Part shown: one piece after another, positions 4,559-23,095 of the stretch | Numbering within the stretch: position 1 is the first letter of the stretch | How the letters are laid out: each line of letters opens with the position of its first letter | Source of the DNA: Candidatus Zixiibacteriota bacterium | Lineage (GTDB): Bacteria > Zixibacteria > MSB-5A5 > UBA10806 > 4484-95 | Assembly (NCBI GenBank): GCA_029932605.1 | Contig: JAOZPT010000039.1 | Coordinates: 1 to 24,667, forward strand | DNA length: 24,667 nt | Direction of reading: 5' to 3' | Notes under the pieces: generated by a model | Told to the model about the DNA's origin: nothing | The model's database searches: none | Seen by the model: only the letters and a program-made list of their open reading frames with translations | Made by a program: the position numbers and the translations under genes

Positions 4559-6025
4559 CTATTTGTAAACCTTACTTTTCCAACAAACATCCAGGTTCTT
4601 TGACGCTTTTGCCTCATCAAGCTTACCAACAGGTGTATTTGTGGGGGCAGAATTAACGATTTCCGGATTCTCCTTTGCCTCCCTGGCGATCTGTTTCATG
4701 ACGCTTATGAAATAATCAAGAGACTGTTTACTTTCGGATTCGGTAGGTTCAATCATCAGTGCCTCATGCACAATTAAGGGGAAATAAACAGTTGGTGCAT
4801 GTATGCCAAAATCTAAAATCCGCTTGGCGATGGCCGAAGTCTTGACGCCATGTTCAAGCTGTTTATCGCCAGACAAAACGAATTCATGCATACAGGGAGA
4901 ATCATAAGGTAATATATAGTCTTCCTTGAGGTTTTCTTTTAAATAATTAGCGTTGATTATAGCTGTCTTAGCGATATTTTTCAAACCCTCCGGGCCAAGT
5001 TGCCTGATAAATGCATAAGCCATTATAGCAATTGCCACGTTACCATAAAACCCGTGAACTTTACCAATTGAGTCCGGGCGGTTAAAATCGAGAAAATAAG
5101 TATATTTCTCGGTTTTCCCTGATTTTCTTGAGACAACTGGTATGGGCAGGAAAGGCTCGAGAAATGATTTGACACCCAGAGCTCCACCCCCTGGTCCTCC
5201 ACCTCCATGAGGAGTTGATAAAGTCTTATGCAGGTTGAAATGAACAATATCAAACCCCATATCGCCTGGCCTGACCAAGCCCAGAAGGGCATTCAAATTA
5301 GCTCCATCCATATATAAAAGCCCACCACTTTCATGTACTATCGTTGCAATCTTTTCTATATCGTTCTCGAATAATCCCAGGGTGTTGGGGTTGGTAAGCA
5401 TAAAGCCCGCCGTGTCTTTATCACAAACCGAAGCTAACTTCTCGGTGTCAACAAGGCCCTTGTTGTTAGATGGCAATTTCACCATATTATAACCTGCAAG
5501 CGCCACTGAAGCAGGATTAGTCCCATGGGCTGAATCAGGGATAATGATATTTTTACGATTTTGTTTTTTATGATATGCTTTCATCATCAGCAAAGCTGTA
5601 AACTCGCCCGAGGCTCCAGCCGCTGGTTGTAAAGTAATGCTATCCATACCGGAGATCGCTGCCAGGATGTTCTGCATATCATACATCAGCTCAAGCGTGC
5701 CCTGAACACAATCAGCAGGGCTATGAGGATGTGCCGACGAAAAACCAGGCAATGAGGCTATTACATCGTTAACCTTAGGATTATATTTCATGGTGCACGA
5801 CCCAAGAGGGTATATTCCTTTGTCTATATGATGGTTTTTCACCGATAGAGCGATAAAATGCCGGACTACTTCCGGTTCCGACAACTCGGGCAAATCCAGT
5901 TCGCTTTTACGCAGGCACGATGATGGTAGAATTGATTCGGCACCACCGTAATACTCGGGCAACTCTGGCAAAGAAAAACCTGTATGACCAGGCCTTGATA
6001 GTTCAATCAAAAGTTTATCATACAA
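4559..6025 (-). CDS. gcvPB: Glycine dehydrogenase (decarboxylating) P protein subunit 2
   Basis: YPLGSCTMKYNP, PDSAHGTNPAS, YMDGANLNA and PLP-lysine motif NLHKTLSTPHGGGGPG. Confidence 0.97.
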   Translation of the reverse strand: MYDKLLIELSRPGHTGFSLPELPEYYGGAESILPSSCLRKSELDLPELSEPEVVRHFIALSVKNHHIDKGIYPLGSCTMKYNPKVNDVIASLPGFSSAHPHSPADCVQGTLELMYDMQNILAAISGMDSITLQPAAGASGEFTALLMMKAYHKKQNRKNIIIPDSAHGTNPASVALAGYNMVKLPSNNKGLVDTEKLASVCDKDTAGFMLTNPNTLGLFENDIEKIATIVHESGGLLYMDGANLNALLGLVRPGDMGFDIVHFNLHKTLSTPHGGGGPGGGALGVKSFLEPFLPIPVVSRKSGKTEKYTYFLDFNRPDSIGKVHGFYGNVAIAIMAYAFIRQLGPEGLKNIAKTAIINANYLKENLKEDYILPYDSPCMHEFVLSGDKQLEHGVKTSAIAKRILDFGIHAPTVYFPLIVHEALMIEPTESESKQSLDYFISVMKQIAREAKENPEIVNSAPTNTPVGKLDEAKASKNLDVCWKSKVYK

Positions 6026-6030
6026 TTCTA

Positions 6031-6903
6031 TTACCCCTTTTTCATAACTTTGTTTAATTCATCAATATGTTGTTTCACCCAATCTACATATTTACCCTGG
6101 GGATAATCATCAAGATACTTTTTAAAATAGTTAAGGGCTTTATAGAAATCGCCATTTTGAACCATACAATACGGAATTATTCTTCGGGCATCCTCAACCC
6201 TTTCTGAATGAGGAAATCTTTTGATAAAATCGTTAAATGCCCTGATACTGGATTTATAATCTCCTTTTTCAGTAAATATATTGGCTATTTCAAACATTGC
6301 TTTTTCGACCTCATCCTGCTGGTTTTTATGACCGAGCTTGATAACGTTATTGTAATACTCAAGGGCTTTGTCCCAGCTGGCTCGATTTCGATATTTTTCA
6401 GCAACAATTAGATGATATTCGACTCTTTCAGGTTCATCCTCCAAGCGAGTCAGGTAGTCTTCGAGGGTCTCTTTACCAATAAGGTAAAGTTGAATCTCGT
6501 TGTAAAAATCGGTAGGTGGGTAATATTCAACAAGCCTATCGATCTCTGAACCATCAGGCTTTGTTACCACCACAGTGGGATAGTATACAATTCCAAATCG
6601 ATGAGCCAACGTTGAATCTTTTATAACATCTAACTTCACAAAAACCATCTTTTCCGACATTTCGATAACAATTTTATCACTGAACGTTGAATCGATAAGC
6701 ATCTTGCTCCAGGGGCATTTGCTGTTTAAAAATACAATTACCATTGGTTGGTTCTTATCGGTGGCGATCTTTTTAGCGGTATCTAAATCTGTTTTGAAAT
6801 CGATTTCAGTAGGGCTTTTCTTAGTTTTCCCGCATCCTGAAAGGATAAAAATGGAAATCGATAACCCTAAAATTAGTAGAAATAACTTATTCGTTTTCAT
6901 CAT
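6031..6903 (-). CDS. Lipoprotein with thioredoxin-like domain (CPWS) and C-terminal TPR repeats
   Basis: Signal peptide with lipobox LSGC; KCPWSK at the CxxC position; YYPT cis-Pro loop; TPR/BamD-like C-terminus (AMFEIANIF...FIKRFPHSE, YLDDYPQGKY). Confidence 0.8.
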   Translation of the reverse strand: MMKTNKLFLLILGLSISIFILSGCGKTKKSPTEIDFKTDLDTAKKIATDKNQPMVIVFLNSKCPWSKMLIDSTFSDKIVIEMSEKMVFVKLDVIKDSTLAHRFGIVYYPTVVVTKPDGSEIDRLVEYYPPTDFYNEIQLYLIGKETLEDYLTRLEDEPERVEYHLIVAEKYRNRASWDKALEYYNNVIKLGHKNQQDEVEKAMFEIANIFTEKGDYKSSIRAFNDFIKRFPHSERVEDARRIIPYCMVQNGDFYKALNYFKKYLDDYPQGKYVDWVKQHIDELNKVMKKG

Positions 6904-7252
6904 CAGGCTCCGAGTAATCTGGTAGTATCCTTTCAGCTATCAATTTTGCTTTTTCAAAAGCTGTCTGGGGGACATAAACCATGATGGTTTTTTCCCCATG
7001 CTCAATCGGTAACAACCCCTTTAATGAACCGTGTCGGGATTGAATCAAACATGGAATTCCTTCACTTTTCAACGCCTCTTCTAAAAACTCCACACTGAGC
7101 ATATCACCTGTTTTACAGAGCATTATTGGCTCGCTATCAAAATCGATTGATTCCTCCTTCCCGGGTAGAGTATCCACAAGTTCGCAGCCACAATCCGGAC
7201 ACCTGGTAATACCCGGGGGATATTCAACTCCACATTTTGGACAAAACGGCAT
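6887..7252 (-). CDS. Zinc-ribbon plus DUF2007-like putative signal transducing protein
   Basis: N-terminal MPFCPKCGVEY...CPDCGCELV; C-terminal LKSEGIPC...VYVPQTAFEKAK pattern; abuts the gcvPA stop and overlaps the next gene. Confidence 0.75.
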   Translation of the reverse strand: MPFCPKCGVEYPPGITRCPDCGCELVDTLPGKEESIDFDSEPIMLCKTGDMLSVEFLEEALKSEGIPCLIQSRHGSLKGLLPIEHGEKTIMVYVPQTAFEKAKLIAERILPDYSEPDDENE

Positions 7253-8587
7253 TTATTTAACTTTCGAAAGTCTGTATACAAGCTCATCTATTTGTTCATA
7301 GGTAATTTTCTCGGTAACAGCGATCATCATACATCCCTTAAGACCAATTTTGAATCTGCCAAGATCAACACCTGGAAGGATATTGAATTTACTAAGGTTA
7401 CTTATGATTTTTTTTGGCGATAATGGTGTCTGGACAACAAATTCCTTGAAAAACGGGGCTTTAAATTTCAGATTAAAACCGGGCAACTCGCAAATTTTAT
7501 CAGCCGTGTAATGTGCTTTTGCCAGACTCAACTCAGCTACACGCTTAATACCGGCTTTTCCCATTACCGCTAAATAAATTCCTGCTGCCAGAGCACACAA
7601 CTGTTGGTTAGTGCAGATATTGGATGTCGCCTTTTCCCGGCGGATATGTTGTTCCCTGGTCTGTAAAGTTAATACAAATCCCTGCCTGCCCTGCTCATCC
7701 GTAGTCCGGGCTACTAGACGACCTGGCATTTTGCGAACCAGATCATTTCTAGCTGAAAGTAACCCAAGGTATGGTCCACCAAAAGAAAGAGGTATCCCTA
7801 ACGGTTGTCCCTCAGCACAAGCGATGTCAGAACCATAATCAGCAGGTGATTTCAATATGCCAAGGGATATCGGATCATAGAAAACAACCAATAGTGCACC
7901 GTGTTTTTTAGTATCTCTAGCGATTTCATCGATATCCTCAATAAGCCCTAAGAAATTCGGATTCTGGATAATGAAAGCAGCGGTATTAGAACAAATCTTT
8001 GACCTATGATGATCAAAATCCACAAGGCCATCAAAAGAAGGAATAGTGATTAGTTTTATGTTGGTTCCTTTAAAGTATGTTTTGATAGTCTCAATATAAT
8101 AAGGATTAACCGTGGAGGAAATTATTATTTCTTCCCTATGCGTATGTCGTACCGCAAGAATTGCTGCCTCGGCCAGAGCGGAGGCTCCATCATACATCGA
8201 TGCATTTGTTATTGGAAGGCCGGTTAGATGGCTTATCATGGATTGGAATTCATAAGTTGTCTGAAGAGTTCCCTGGGAGACTTCAGCTTGGTATGGAGTG
8301 TAGGCGGTCCTAAACTCCGGACGCGAGATGATATGCTCAATAACAGCGGGAATAAAATGGTCATAAGCACCAGCACCAGCAAAACATGCATAATAATGTT
8401 TATTTTTTTCAGACAGTTTTGTTAAGTAAGCAACAAGTTCGGATTCAGGTAAAGGTCGAGGGATATTGAGTGGGTGACGGTATCTTAACGAGGCCGGTAT
8501 TGATTGTAAGAGCTCCTCGAAATCATGAACACCAATGCTTTCCAGCATCGATTTAAGTTCTAACTGTGTGTTGGGTATATAATTCAT
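7253..8587 (-). CDS. gcvPA: Glycine dehydrogenase (decarboxylating) P protein subunit 1
   Basis: TAYTPYQAEVSQGTLQ, NASMYDGASALAEA, LQTREQHIRREKATSNICTNQ. Confidence 0.97.
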   Translation of the reverse strand: MNYIPNTQLELKSMLESIGVHDFEELLQSIPASLRYRHPLNIPRPLPESELVAYLTKLSEKNKHYYACFAGAGAYDHFIPAVIEHIISRPEFRTAYTPYQAEVSQGTLQTTYEFQSMISHLTGLPITNASMYDGASALAEAAILAVRHTHREEIIISSTVNPYYIETIKTYFKGTNIKLITIPSFDGLVDFDHHRSKICSNTAAFIIQNPNFLGLIEDIDEIARDTKKHGALLVVFYDPISLGILKSPADYGSDIACAEGQPLGIPLSFGGPYLGLLSARNDLVRKMPGRLVARTTDEQGRQGFVLTLQTREQHIRREKATSNICTNQQLCALAAGIYLAVMGKAGIKRVAELSLAKAHYTADKICELPGFNLKFKAPFFKEFVVQTPLSPKKIISNLSKFNILPGVDLGRFKIGLKGCMMIAVTEKITYEQIDELVYRLSKVK

Positions 8588-8967
8588 TAATCTTGGTCTA
8601 TAAGGTTCTTGTAGCCGTCAGGATCAAGCAGTTTATTGATTTCAGAGGGATCAGATATCTTGACTTTTATAATCCAGCCATCTCCATAAGGGCTCGAATT
8701 TATGATACCAGCATCATCTTCAAGAGCAGTGTTTATCTCAGTAACTTCGCCTGATATCGGTGAGAATAAATCCGAAACAGCCTTAACCGCCTCAATAGTG
8801 CCAAACGGCTTCATGAATTCAACTTTTGAGCCAACAGCCGGTAACTCAATAAATACGATATCACCAAGTTCACCCTGAGCGTAATCTGTAATACCGACGG
8901 TTGCTATATCACCATCGATTTTTACCCATTCATGTTCTTTTGAATATTTTAATTCTTCAGGTATCAA
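8587..8967 (-). CDS. gcvH: Glycine cleavage system H protein
   Basis: [29 protein letters not shown], lipoyl-lysine motif [19 protein letters not shown]. Confidence 0.97.
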
Positions 8968-10346
8968 AAGACCTCCTTGCTTTTTGCCGGATTCTTAGCC
9001 AGAACACCAGCCATGAGTTTATCTATATACGAAGTATCATAGTTGCCAAAAATGAATACAGGGTCTTCAAAAATGCTTTTATAGAAATCGATTGGTGTGG
9101 GGACACCCTCAACTATGAATTCATCAAGTGCCCTTCTCATTCTCAGAATTGCCTCAGAACGGTCTTTACCATGGACTATCAATTTGGCAATTAAGGAGTC
9201 GTAATATTCGGGCATTTCATAGCCTGCATAGGCATGGGTATCAACTCTTACTCCCAGCCCTCCCGGTGTGTGAAATGTTGTAATTCTACCTGGTACGGGA
9301 GTAAAATTATTCACCGCGTTTTCAGCTGTAACACGGCACTCTATAGCGTGACCGTTAAACTTTATGTCCGATTGCTTGCACCTAAGTTGTTTTCCAGCAG
9401 CAATCTCAATTTGCTCTTTAATCAGGTCGATGTTCGTGATTTCTTCAGTAACTGTGTGCTCAACCTGTATACGGGTATTTACTTCCATAAAATAGAAATT
9501 ACCTTCGGGGTCAATTAGAAATTCAACCGTTCCGGCACTTGTATAACCTACCGCTTTAGCGCCCCTAATAGACGCCTTTCCCATTTTTTGGCGTAGTTGA
9601 TCATCAACAATAGCCGATGGTGATTCTTCGATAAGCTTTTGATGCCGTCTTTGTATGGTGCAATCACGTTCGCCCAGATGGATGATATTGCCATGGTTAT
9701 CCGCAAGTATCTGGACTTCAACATGGCGAGGATTTGCAATATATTTTTCAATATAAACCTCTGAGTTACCAAAGGCAACACCGGCTTCCGAACGCGCCAT
9801 GTCAAGCGCTTTTTCAAGGTCCTCCTGATTTTCCACCACACGCATTCCTCTACCACCACCACCAGCAGCAGCTTTTATAATAACAGGATAACCTATTACT
9901 TTTGTTATTTCAATAGCGTCATCGTAACTTTTGATTACTCCATCCGAGCCCGGGATCGTCGGAACACCAGCATTTCTCATTGTTTTTTTAGCAAGTGACT
10001 TATCACCCAAAAGCTGAATGACTTTTGGTGATGGTCCTATGAAAGCGATATCGCATGACTGGCAGACCTCGGCAAAGTCTGCGTTCTCGGCCAAGAAACC
10101 GTAACCTGGATGGATGGCTTCGGTATTTGTAATCTCGGCGGCAGCAATAACCCGCTTGGCATCAAGATAGCTCTCGGCCGGAGGACCCGGTCCAATACAG
10201 ACGTCCTCGTCAGCGAATCGAACATGCAAGGAATCAGCATCAGCTTCAGAATAAACAGCCACGGTCAAAACACCCAGTTCTTTGCATGCACGGATAATCC
10301 GCAGGGCTATTTCGCCTCTGTTTGCTACCAGAATTTTTTTAAACAA
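8964..10346 (-). CDS. accC: Acetyl-CoA carboxylase biotin carboxylase subunit
   Basis: [69 protein letters not shown]. Confidence 0.96.
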
Positions 10347-21182: not shown

Positions 21183-21740
21183 TCAAGCCCGCTCAAGGTA
21201 TTTGCTTTCACGAGTGTCTATTTTTATTTTGTCCCCCGTTTTTATAAAAAGCGGCACTCTGACTTTAAGACCGGTTTCCACCGTGACCAGTTTGGTGATA
21301 TTCGATACGGTATCACCCTTAACCGCCGGTTCAGCCTCGGTTACCTCAAGCACTACCGACGATGGCATCTCAACATTAACGGGATTACCCTCAAAAAAAA
21401 GGATTTCATATTCAATGTTCTCCTGGAGATACCATTTGTGATTTCCGATCTGATCCTCGTTAAGTGCTACCTGGTCATAGGTTCTTAAATCCATGAAATG
21501 GAAACCCTCCTGGTCAGCGTAAAGAAATTGCATCCTTTTTGCTTCAAAATCAGGCTCTTCGAATTTTTCTCCAGCAGAAAACGTCTTTTCCAGTACCTGG
21601 CCGGTGCGAATGTTTTTCAATTTCGTCCAGACATTAGCCCGACGCTGAGCAGTCCGGGCATGCTGGAAATCAACTATATAATAAATATCATCCCCAACCT
21701 TCAATCGCATACCTATACGAAAATCGGACGTACTTATCAT
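21183..21740 (-). CDS. efp: Translation elongation factor P with non-canonical tip loop
   Basis: MISTSDFRIG, TKLKNIRTG, MQFLY, FMDLRTYDQ, PAVKGDTVS, VETGLKVRVPLFIKTGDKIKIDTR, YLERA. ATG 21740 is preferred over TTG 21746 because GGAGG lies 7 nt upstream. Confidence 0.96.
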   Translation of the reverse strand: MISTSDFRIGMRLKVGDDIYYIVDFQHARTAQRRANVWTKLKNIRTGQVLEKTFSAGEKFEEPDFEAKRMQFLYADQEGFHFMDLRTYDQVALNEDQIGNHKWYLQENIEYEILFFEGNPVNVEMPSSVVLEVTEAEPAVKGDTVSNITKLVTVETGLKVRVPLFIKTGDKIKIDTRESKYLERA

Positions 21741-21898
21741 TAGCAAACCTCCATTCCTATCACAAAATATATAATAAACTACAATTTCAGCAAGGGAAAG
21801 TTTAATTTATGGTATTAATTAATAGTATGATAGAATATCTTTATTAAGTTATAGAAATTCAACAACCAAACAGTCTTGAACATTAAATAACAACGAAT

Positions 21899-23095
21899 TT
21901 AAATACTCCCTGAATTAATCAATTCCATCATCTCATCCTCAGTCTTTCTCCAATTCGCCAGATATGACAAAGCTGGTTTATCTTCCTCTGTTTGGTCGGG
22001 TGCGGTTTCAGGAAGACGTTTTAGACGGAGTTTAATAGGGGTTTTTAATCTTTTAACCCTGCTTTTGCTAGTCTCTTCATATGAACGTTTAATAATCTTT
22101 CTTATTTCATTTGTCTGAAGAGAATAATCCGGTTTCATATAGCTATAAATATTTTCAAGCATTGGCTGACCAGGCTGGCGTCGAAAACTGTCATTGGGAA
22201 TGATGTTTTCATGAAGATGGGTTTCAACATTGTATTTAATCACTGCATTTTTATACCGGTTCAATCCACATAATGTTGCTGCTCTTTCATCTGCTTTCAA
22301 CTCTAAGATCTGATTAAAACCATGTGTTAAATAAAGTGTAATAGCTTGACCCAATAACAAAAACAGGGCAACAGGATTAAGCATAAATAAAAATCCGTAA
22401 CTAAGGACATTATCAGTAGCGGATTTGAGGTAACTGTTCAATCGCCGGATATATAAGCCCGTTGATTTTTCCCCATCCATGTAAAAAGCATATTGTCGGG
22501 CAAACATCGCCTTTAGCTCGTTAGCTGTTAAAAACTGCAGTGCTGAAAGACCAACCCTCATCACTTTACTACAACCATAGAAAACGTTGTCTAAAGTAGC
22601 TATATCATCCTTTATAATGACTTCTGCTCCAGGAGTGATTTTGATTATTTTTACGGGAGCAACTTTAAAATATCGCGATAGTTCAGCAGACAATTTATAT
22701 AACTCCGGCTCAGTGGCGGGAGTGGCTGTTATAAAATGATCATCGTTTGTCGATTTCTTTTTAAACACAACCGTTAAAGTCAAAAGTCCGTTCAGGCTTA
22801 ACCAGGTCAATATCGCTAATATCACAAACGACAACTCACCGGTAATAGATAGAACATAAGATATTGATAAAACTGACATTATCACAACCGAAACGCCTAA
22901 AATCGGTATGCTAATAAAGTATACAACTGTATAAGATTTCAAGAACAACAGATATAGATACCCAGAGATTTCGTTAATTAATCTATAAGGTTGTTCATAT
23001 AAATATAATAATAACCTATCTAATAGAAAGCATACAACTCCCGAAACGCTAACAAGCCCGAGAAAAACTAAATTCAACTTTAGGACAAAAAGCAT
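21899..23095 (-). CDS. M48 (HtpX-like) metallopeptidase homologue lacking the HExxH zinc motif
   Basis: N-terminal TM helices; EPELYKL; VGLSALQFLTANELKAMFARQYAFY where LxxxELxAVLAHExGH is expected; downstream ELKADERAA; TPIKLRLKRL where HP..R is expected. Confidence 0.7.
   Translation of the reverse strand: MLFVLKLNLVFLGLVSVSGVVCFLLDRLLLYLYEQPYRLINEISGYLYLLFLKSYTVVYFISIPILGVSVVIMSVLSISYVLSITGELSFVILAILTWLSLNGLLTLTVVFKKKSTNDDHFITATPATEPELYKLSAELSRYFKVAPVKIIKITPGAEVIIKDDIATLDNVFYGCSKVMRVGLSALQFLTANELKAMFARQYAFYMDGEKSTGLYIRRLNSYLKSATDNVLSYGFLFMLNPVALFLLLGQAITLYLTHGFNQILELKADERAATLCGLNRYKNAVIKYNVETHLHENIIPNDSFRRQPGQPMLENIYSYMKPDYSLQTNEIRKIIKRSYEETSKSRVKRLKTPIKLRLKRLPETAPDQTEEDKPALSYLANWRKTEDEMMELINSGSI

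What the first reader, a model, noticed from the sequence alone, without database searches (positions are those of the whole stretch)
21627..21662. EF-P with a novel tip loop: HARTAQRRANVW, Gln at the normally modified Lys
Seen: from ATG 21740 the protein aligns ungapped to Bacillus-type EF-P (VDFQHVKPGKGAAFVRSKL), giving T30-A31-Q32-R33-R34 in place of P30-G31-K32-G33. Established: the tip residue is a Lys (beta-lysylated by EpmA, 5-aminopentanolylated, or unmodified in PGKGP types) or an Arg (rhamnosylated by EarP, or unmodified in EfpL); Gln cannot take these modifications. The rest of the protein is canonical with a strong SD. Inference: a modification-independent EF-P using the Arg pair to contact the tRNA CCA end, or a substrate for an undescribed modification.
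Basis: partly seen in the sequence, partly recalled or inferred. Interest (0 to 1): 0.7.

Follow-up and report, generated by a model that had tools for sequence, protein, structure and literature searches.

The report
Glutamine-tipped elongation factor P
This bacterium's only copy of the protein that helps ribosomes through runs of proline has a neutral glutamine where a charged, usually tagged residue sits, and it likely works untagged by using the arginine next door; similar loops are already listed in print, but no test of a natural one was found.

Summary
Window 21183-21740 (-) is an intact EF-P, the only copy in a 99.96% complete genome (Zixibacteria, judged from named relatives). Gln32 aligns without gaps to Lys32 of S. 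aureus and Arg32 of T. thermophilus. EarP and EpmA were not found. Proline triplets are enriched (125 against 60 by chance), so nothing suggests lost function. The loop is strongly conserved. Of 93 phylum genomes read, 49 have Gln32, all with Arg33; 44 have Arg32, 43 of them with Gly33. The tip switches at least 6 times on the tree. Arg33, not the 'Arg pair', is what goes with Gln. The same loop is the sole EF-P in 13 genomes of other groups, with no shared neighbouring enzyme gene. Most likely the factor is unmodified and its arginine has moved one place along (0.55). Against this, some published Gln loops lack that arginine. Gln tips are already tallied (Volkwein 2019: 0.6%; Sieber 2024 lists Erysipelothrix KTAQRQM), E. 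coli K34Q is inactive, and no test of a natural Gln-tipped EF-P was found. This scan noted the loop three times before on other DNA. Verdict: a real, untested variant of a known kind.

The parts
21183..21740 (-). efp, elongation factor P, 185 aa; only copy found in the genome
   Evidence: TIGR00038 232 bits over cut-off; one PF09285 match; one hit at E<=1 in a six-frame profile search; EF-P fold
21747..21752 (-). Shine-Dalgarno-like GGAGGT, 6 nt before the ATG
   Evidence: read from the sequence
21627..21662 (-). beta3-beta4 loop region H27-W38; the loop lies between predicted strands 18-27 and 36-43
21645..21647 (-). Gln32 (CAG), at the position of the modified Lys/Arg
   Evidence: ungapped alignment to K32 (6rk3) and R32 (1ueb); alternates with Arg in relatives
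21642..21644 (-). Arg33 (CGT), in place of the usual Gly; candidate replacement for the tip charge
   Evidence: Arg in 49 of 49 Gln-tip phylum genomes, with all six Arg codons used; Gly in 43 of 44 Arg-tip genomes
21639..21641 (-). Arg34 (CGG); basic in most Gln-tip and many Arg-tip relatives, so not specific to the Gln loop
21654..21656 (-). Arg29 (CGG), at the position of the conserved Lys29
21309..21317 (-). domain III G142-D143-T144 motif (E-site codon contact), kept
   Evidence: role from passages of PMC12856214
20532..21176 (-). rnhC (RNase HIII), usual downstream neighbour in both Gln-tip and Arg-tip phylum members; not part of a modification system
   Evidence: TIGR00716 193 bits over cut-off; neighbourhood clustering

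Best explanation
This is the cell's only EF-P, with glutamine at the loop tip, and it likely works without any modification, the arginine one place further on (Arg33) likely supplying the positive contact to the P-site tRNA end that a tip lysine or arginine gives elsewhere. Shown: sole intact copy, Gln32 at the tip position, Arg33 in every Gln-tip genome of the phylum that was read, EarP and EpmA not found. Inferred: that the protein is active; that it is unmodified; that Arg33, helped by Arg29 and Arg34, binds the CCA end or nearby 23S rRNA phosphates; that Ala31-Gln32 shape a turn pointing Arg33 there. On this reading Arg32-Gly33 and Gln32-Arg33 are two interchangeable forms of the unmodified, proline-free EF-P loop.
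For: (1) Covariation in 93 phylum genomes: 49 Gln32, all Arg33; 44 Arg32, of which 43 Gly33 and 1 Arg33 (G025, TARRR, a possible intermediate). (2) With the loop columns removed the tip state changes 6 times on the tree, and one clade of all Arg-tip rows is rejected (AU p=0.0012, 17 against 37 rows, quick tree). (3) Among relatives of the genomes outside the phylum, found without the loop pattern, 9 of 9 Gln/Met/Ala tips have Arg next (5 Gln, 3 Met, 1 Ala; 3 Asn-type loops and 1 misaligned row set aside). Erysipelothrix species show the same Gln/Met swap in print (KTAQRQM, KTAMRQM). A tip that can be Gln, Met or Ala is a poor site for a specific enzyme. (4) E. coli EF-P K34Q is inactive (PMC6544042 section 19), so Gln needs a changed loop around it. 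(5) EarP in 0 of 208 phylum genomes (control 5 of 13). EpmA over cut-off in none of G000, 20 further phylum genomes or 13 outside carriers. (6) The loop is the only EF-P match in 13 outside genomes, three of them 0.8-1.0 Mb, with unrelated housekeeping neighbours. (7) Arg-tip EF-Ps without EarP can work unmodified in E. coli (PMC12931083). (8) Demand persists: 125 PPP against 59.8 +/- 8.6 in shuffles; the conserved proline motifs of ValS-, IleS-, Lon-, FtsH- and Clp-like proteins are kept.
Against: Gln tips without Arg at +1 exist. Of 12 Gln rows seen in Sieber's table, 5 have Gly next (Caldimicrobium KVAQGQA, two Dictyoglomus HMAQGQA, two Thermodesulfobium RKAQGAA), and the Dictyoglomus loop holds no Lys or Arg. 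Sixteen Calescibacterium-like proteins have Ala or Ser at +1 and Arg/Lys at +2. Only 1 independent Gln/Arg pair rests on strongly supported branches (6 on all branches), so the sign test cannot reach significance. Most PGKG-type relatives also lacked EpmA at the cut-off, so its absence is not special to the Gln loop. There are no activity, mass or RNA data.
Confidence: 0.55

Rival explanations
1. Unmodified, but Gln32 itself makes the working contact: its amide hydrogen-bonds the CCA end or the 23S P-loop, and Arg29/33/34 add only general affinity.
For: Ala/Gln-Gln recurs in Brachyspira, Erysipelothrix, Caldimicrobium, Dictyoglomus, Thermodesulfobium and Calescibacterium-like proteins, whether or not Arg follows. 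Q32 is invariant in 49 genomes with both codons used.
Against: K34Q is inactive in E. coli. Met and Ala replace Gln while Arg33 stays.
Confidence: 0.2
2. The loop is the substrate of an undescribed modification: for example a polyamine joined to the Gln32 amide to give a hypusine-like arm, Gln methylation, or a group on Thr30 or Arg33.
For: The loop is far more uniform than the Arg-tip loops of the same phylum: 44 of 49 are identical over residues 29-35, against 13 forms among 44, as enzyme-recognised loops often are. G000 has two DHS-like genes and 7 transglutaminase-core matches over cut-off.
Against: No neighbour cluster was specific to Gln-tip loci across families, and none is shared by the outside carriers. 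The tip can be Met or Ala. G279 has the loop but no transglutaminase-core match (incomplete genome). One PrmC-family gene over cut-off in each of 5 genomes. One DHS-like gene sits beside a pyruvoyl arginine decarboxylase, which fits polyamine synthesis.
Confidence: 0.13
3. A weak or narrowed EF-P: domains II and III still bind tRNA-Pro, the tip adds little, and an ABCF ATPase or similar factor covers most proline stalling.
For: G000 has an ABCF-type linker match. EF-P is dispensable in several bacteria and has back-ups (PMC13602936). K34Q is inactive in E. coli.
Against: The loop residues are held while their codons vary freely. PPP enrichment and the conserved PP motifs are kept. Gln-tip genomes G063 (99% complete) and G275 gave no ABCF linker match.
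Confidence: 0.1
4. Artefact: an assembly error, a misaligned register, or an inactive second copy.
For: The register is unsure in print for such loops: KTAMRQG is scored as Arg-tipped in Sieber's table, while other T-x-M loops of Mollicutes are scored as Met in Volkwein's.
Against: Four runs agree. Alignments to solved EF-Ps are ungapped. Gln and Arg alternate in one column among close kin. Single copy.
Confidence: 0.02

Closest known systems
Gln-tip EF-Ps tabulated in print: Erysipelothrix KTAQRQM, Brachyspira RAQQRKA, Caldimicrobium KVAQGQA, Dictyoglomus HMAQGQA, Thermodesulfobium RKAQGAA (PMC11611912 supplement; PMC6544042, Gln 0.6% of 1166)
   Same: Seven-residue loop, Gln at the tip, no Pro at -2, single copy, no EarP. 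Erysipelothrix shares T-A-Q-R.
   Different: The RTAQRRA form was not in the searched table ('QRR' 0 hits; file cut when stored). Here it runs through 13 families of one phylum and switches repeatedly with Arg-Gly loops. No functional test of any of them was found.
Arginine-type EF-P without EarP (T. thermophilus 1UEB/4V6A, KLGRGGA; Deinococcus radiodurans EF-P active unmodified in E. coli, PMC12931083)
   Same: Same register and loop length, no Pro30, basic residue 29, no EarP. Arg-tip members of this phylum carry such loops (KIGRGGA, KMGRGGA).
   Different: Tip is Gln and the next residue is Arg rather than Gly.
EfpL (YeiP)
   Same: Unmodified factor that relies on an arginine.
   Different: EfpL has a loop extended by two residues and is a second copy. 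This protein has a 7-residue loop, is the sole copy and scores far below the EfpL cut-offs.
PGKGP-type unmodified EF-P (Actinobacteria)
   Same: Likely works without modification; the best fold match is C. glutamicum EF-P (6s8z, Z 20.7, rmsd 2.1, 183 aligned; tied with the next rows).
   Different: No prolines in the loop and no lysine at the tip.
EpmA-, YmfI- and EarP-modified EF-Ps
   Same: Same three-domain fold and tip position.
   Different: The acceptor Lys/Arg is absent, and EpmA and EarP were not found.

Membership tests
EF-P (TIGR00038) | full-length three-domain protein over the family cut-off | tested here: met
   232 bits against 185.8; model pLDDT 88.3 and EF-P entries as top fold matches
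EF-P (TIGR00038) | relieves ribosome stalling at proline runs | not testable with these tools
   indirect only: sole copy, PPP enrichment
EpmA-type (beta-lysylated) | P-G-K-G loop with tip Lys | tested here: not met
   T-A-Q-R
EpmA-type (beta-lysylated) | epmA and epmB in the genome | tested here: not met
   best EpmA match is LysRS; the KamA-family gene scores 135.8 against the EpmB cut-off 369.3 and sits beside a GlmL-family gene
EarP-type (rhamnosylated) | tip Arg | tested here: not met
   Gln32; Arg33 is the +1 position
EarP-type (rhamnosylated) | earP in the genome | tested here: not met
   0 of 208 phylum genomes; positive control 5 of 13
YmfI-type (5-aminopentanolylated) | tip Lys | tested here: not met
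YmfI-type (5-aminopentanolylated) | ymfI/ynbB/gsaB in the genome | not tested
   not searched
PGKGP unmodified type | Pro30 and Pro34 flanking Lys32 | tested here: not met
   Thr30, Gln32, Arg34
EfpL | extended loop with tip Arg; occurs beside a canonical EF-P | tested here: not met
   no insertion against solved EF-Ps; below cut-offs; sole copy
Gln-tip EF-P class (catalogued, no functional test found) | Gln at the tip of a 7-residue loop without Pro at -2 | tested here: met
Gln-tip EF-P class (catalogued, no functional test found) | unmodified in vivo | not testable with these tools
   needs mass spectrometry

The most novel reading that the evidence does not exclude
Gln32 carries an undescribed post-translational modification, for example a polyamine on the side-chain amide that gives a hypusine-like arm. 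That would be a fourth bacterial way of activating EF-P, by an enzyme not encoded next to efp.
Probability: 0.1. Interest if true: 0.8.

Novelty: new variant of a known kind. Interest (0 to 1): 0.4.

Why it matters
[quoted passage not shown] Yet a Gln-tipped loop is the only EF-P in dozens of genomes that keep their proline-run proteins. If Arg33 does the job, the charge can move by one position, and the Gln/Met-Arg loops of Erysipelothrix, Brachyspira and Mollicutes get a common explanation. Close relatives that differ mainly in the loop (G000 and G001; G241 and G025) make this directly testable. It extends the known variety of unmodified EF-Ps; it is not a new kind of system.

Tried and rejected
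Second efp copy: none. EarP, EpmA, EpmB: not found. The first EarP searches had no positive control, and the Ferrimonas genome was also negative; a working control came from its family. A modifier gene linked to efp: none specific to Gln-tip loci within about 1.5-2.5 kb; the clustering was blurred by antisense ORFs, and unlinked genes were not profiled. Extra PrmC-type methyltransferase: none in 5 genomes. Transglutaminase-core genes: present in Gln-tip and Arg-tip genomes alike, so uninformative. Compensating change in 23S rRNA: G000's 23S was not found; in one Gln-tip (G063) and one Arg-tip (G043) genome the P-loop, the AAAGACCCC stretch and the A-loop core read the same (n=2). The two tRNA-Pro found were not compared with references. 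Expression: no RNA holder listed, which is no evidence either way. The promoter scan was at chance level. The independent-pairs test was underpowered. The careful tree searches did not finish; all trees are quick trees. The root of the Gln/Arg history is unresolved: Gln rows lie on both sides of the phylum's base, but the inner forks are open. Six of the 90 pattern hits were not EF-P. Three representative hits (P0127, P0129, P0149) were set aside unread because their lengths or repeated matches did not fit EF-P. Source names for several metagenome proteins with Gln/Met loops (P0140, P0139, P0130) could not be obtained. No complex was predicted, because that tool folds proteins only and the partner here is RNA.

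Full report
Observation. The - strand ORF 21740-21183 encodes a 185-residue EF-P. It passes TIGR00038 (232 bits, cut-off 185.8) and fails the EfpL models. The stretch 21662-21627 reads HARTAQRRANVW, and a GGAGGT lies 6 nt before the ATG. Alignments to solved EF-Ps are ungapped over the loop and put Q32 on K32 of S. aureus and R32 of T. thermophilus. The AlphaFold model (67-row alignment, mean pLDDT 88.3) has strands 18-27 and 36-43, so residues 31-32 lie at the middle of the loop; the block 31-40 scores 77. Its best fold matches are EF-Ps (6s8z Z 20.7, rmsd 2.1, 183 aligned; 1ueb Z 19.5). Side-chain directions could not be measured. Contigs of 4 of 4 runs laid show no different letter in the loop.

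One copy, no known modifier. The genome (2.53 Mb, 99.96% complete) has one PF09285 match and one hit in a six-frame search at E<=1. Named relatives place it in Zixibacteria. EarP was found in 0 of 208 phylum genomes; the same search found it in 5 of 13 genomes of a control family. The best EpmA match is lysyl-tRNA synthetase. Of 56 further genomes only 1, a Lys-tip one, passed the EpmA cut-off, so many PGKG relatives lack it as well. A KamA-family gene is far below the EpmB cut-off and lies beside a GlmL-family gene. Of two DHS-like genes, one is next to a pyruvoyl arginine decarboxylase; DHS chemistry needs a lysine amine (established knowledge). YmfI was not tested.

Demand for EF-P. In 2012 crudely called ORFs there are 125 PPP against 59.8 +/- 8.6 in 50 within-protein shuffles; part of the excess comes from one repeated motif. 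Proteins that I identify from recalled motifs as ValS, IleS, Lon, FtsH and ClpB/C keep their proline motifs. Loss of these motifs is the published sign of EF-P trouble (PMC11388002, passages).

Distribution. 118 of the 120 best protein hits have Q32. A pattern scan of 185,579 species genomes gave 90 stretches, 84 of them EF-P. In the phylum, 248 of 257 genomes gave a match, nearly all a single one. I read 93 of them, picked from the places listed, which favours those most like the query; only 12 of 96 genomes of the largest family were read, and family f15 not at all. The Gln loop occurs in 13 families; five families read had only Arg tips. Of the 93, 49 have Q32 and all 49 have R33. The other 44 have R32, 43 with G33 and one with R33. 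Position 34 is Arg or Lys in 48 of 49 Gln-tip and 33 of 44 Arg-tip genomes, so it does not mark the Gln loop. In the 49, T30, A31, Q32, R33 and A35 are invariant while their codons vary (all six Arg codons at 33), which points to purifying selection.

History. With residues 25-39 removed, a tree of 105 rows needs 6 changes of tip state (shuffled mean 34; only 1 is forced by strongly supported branches; the long row L206 was left out). A thinned set of 54 rows rejects one clade of Arg-tip rows (AU p=0.0012). Arg loops sit inside the window's own family (G001), inside f2 and inside f4. The direction of change is not settled. Thirteen genomes whose titles or relatives place them outside the phylum carry the loop as their only match to the query. 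Relatives were read for four of these carriers: mostly PGKG for three (15 of 16 further loci around G283; 8 of 11 around G275) and mixed for G279. This fits transfer or independent origin; no donor test was run. Their neighbours are unrelated housekeeping genes. Among those relatives, found without the pattern, 9 of 9 Gln, Met or Ala tips have Arg next. Four of the five Gln cases lie in genomes of 0.7-1.3 Mb, likely Patescibacteria (inferred from size only).

Results against the reading. Sixteen Calescibacterium-like proteins have Ala or Ser after Gln. Five of the 12 Gln rows seen in the Sieber table have Gly after Gln, and two have no Lys or Arg in the loop. So Arg33 is not needed by every Gln-tip EF-P. 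The phylogenetic pairs test has too few pairs to be significant. There are no activity data.

Mechanism. [quoted passage not shown] That T. thermophilus R32 and K29 touch tRNA and 23S phosphates is recalled from the 70S structure paper, which I did not read. E. coli K34Q is inactive (PMC6544042 section 19 part 1), and some Arg-type EF-Ps work unmodified (PMC12931083 passages). Inferred: the Gln loop is a co-adapted form in which the arginine has moved from 32 to 33 (0.55). Rivals: the Gln amide makes the contact (0.2), an undescribed modification (0.13), a weak factor with back-up (0.1), artefact (0.02).

What is in print. Gln at the tip: 0.6% of 1166 EF-Ps, never with the -2 proline (PMC6544042 passages; its table gives three Brachyspiraceae rows; I did not find the other Gln rows). 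It is also named in the discussion of the EfpL preprint (10.1101/2024.04.15.589488, passages). The table of PMC11611912 lists Erysipelothrix KTAQRQM and others but no QRR loop; that file was cut when stored and one supplement could not be read. Of 10.1101/2023.09.18.558224 I saw passages only; preprint supplements were closed. The supplement of PMC11388002 did not mention Zixibacteria or glutamine. Full-text searches for EF-P with Zixibacteria, with Brachyspira and polyproline and with K34Q gave nothing; with Erysipelothrix, three unrelated listings. Subscription journals are mostly outside the library. Three earlier notes of this scan describe the same loop on other DNA; I checked their paper leads myself.

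Verdict. Real, conserved and likely functional. It is a new variant of the catalogued Gln-tip class, for which I found no functional test, and probably one form of unmodified, proline-free EF-P. The added value here is the tight Arg-Gly versus Gln-Arg alternation among close kin, which gives a clean experiment. Interest 0.4.

Noticed in passing
window 21899-23095 (-): A 398-aa membrane-rich ORF just upstream of efp with no NCBIfam or Pfam match. Its 'ELKAMFARQY ... ELKADERA' stretches recall an M48-type peptidase that has lost the HExxH motif (resemblance from memory). Related ORFs flank efp in 4 family-f1 genomes.
   Followed up: partly
L277:3548-3806 (G063): A group I intron (RF00028, 81.4 bits, over the gathering score) in the 23S rRNA gene, near model positions 1850-2030.
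   Followed up: partly
L164, L165, L166 (family f17); L267, L272: The domain III G-D-T motif reads G-D-R, and many phylum members have G-D-S; this may alter E-site codon contacts.
   Followed up: no
L128, L132, L133, L135, L136, L141, L143, L145 (families f13, f16): Arg-tip loops ending in Arg-Pro-His (KMGRGRPH), with Pro at position 35.
   Followed up: no
L244-L261 (relatives of G279): Very mixed EF-P loops among small genomes of one group: Lys-Gly 5, Arg-tip 8, Gln-Arg 4, Ala-Arg 1 of 18.
   Followed up: partly
L020, L021, L026, L153, L156 and other phylum loci: efp-rnhC is often followed by an IF-2B-family gene (methylthioribose-phosphate isomerase-like) in both tip types.
   Followed up: partly
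G000:C51:17195-22622: A 598-aa KamA-family radical SAM protein with a long N-terminal extension, between a GlmL-family gene and a 375-aa ORF without an NCBIfam match; substrate unclear.
   Followed up: partly
G000, many contigs: About 20 proteins, many of them long, carry a repeated 'Y(F/L)KG.G.PPP' motif near the C-terminus, a large share of the genome's proline triplets.
   Followed up: no
L037:510-1001: A Lys/Ala-rich histone-H1-like protein with a C-terminal SWIB-like stretch (by eye) near the second DHS-like gene.
   Followed up: no
window 4559-10346 (-): Glycine cleavage genes (P subunits, H protein) and biotin carboxylase, by inspection of the translations; ordinary.
   Followed up: no
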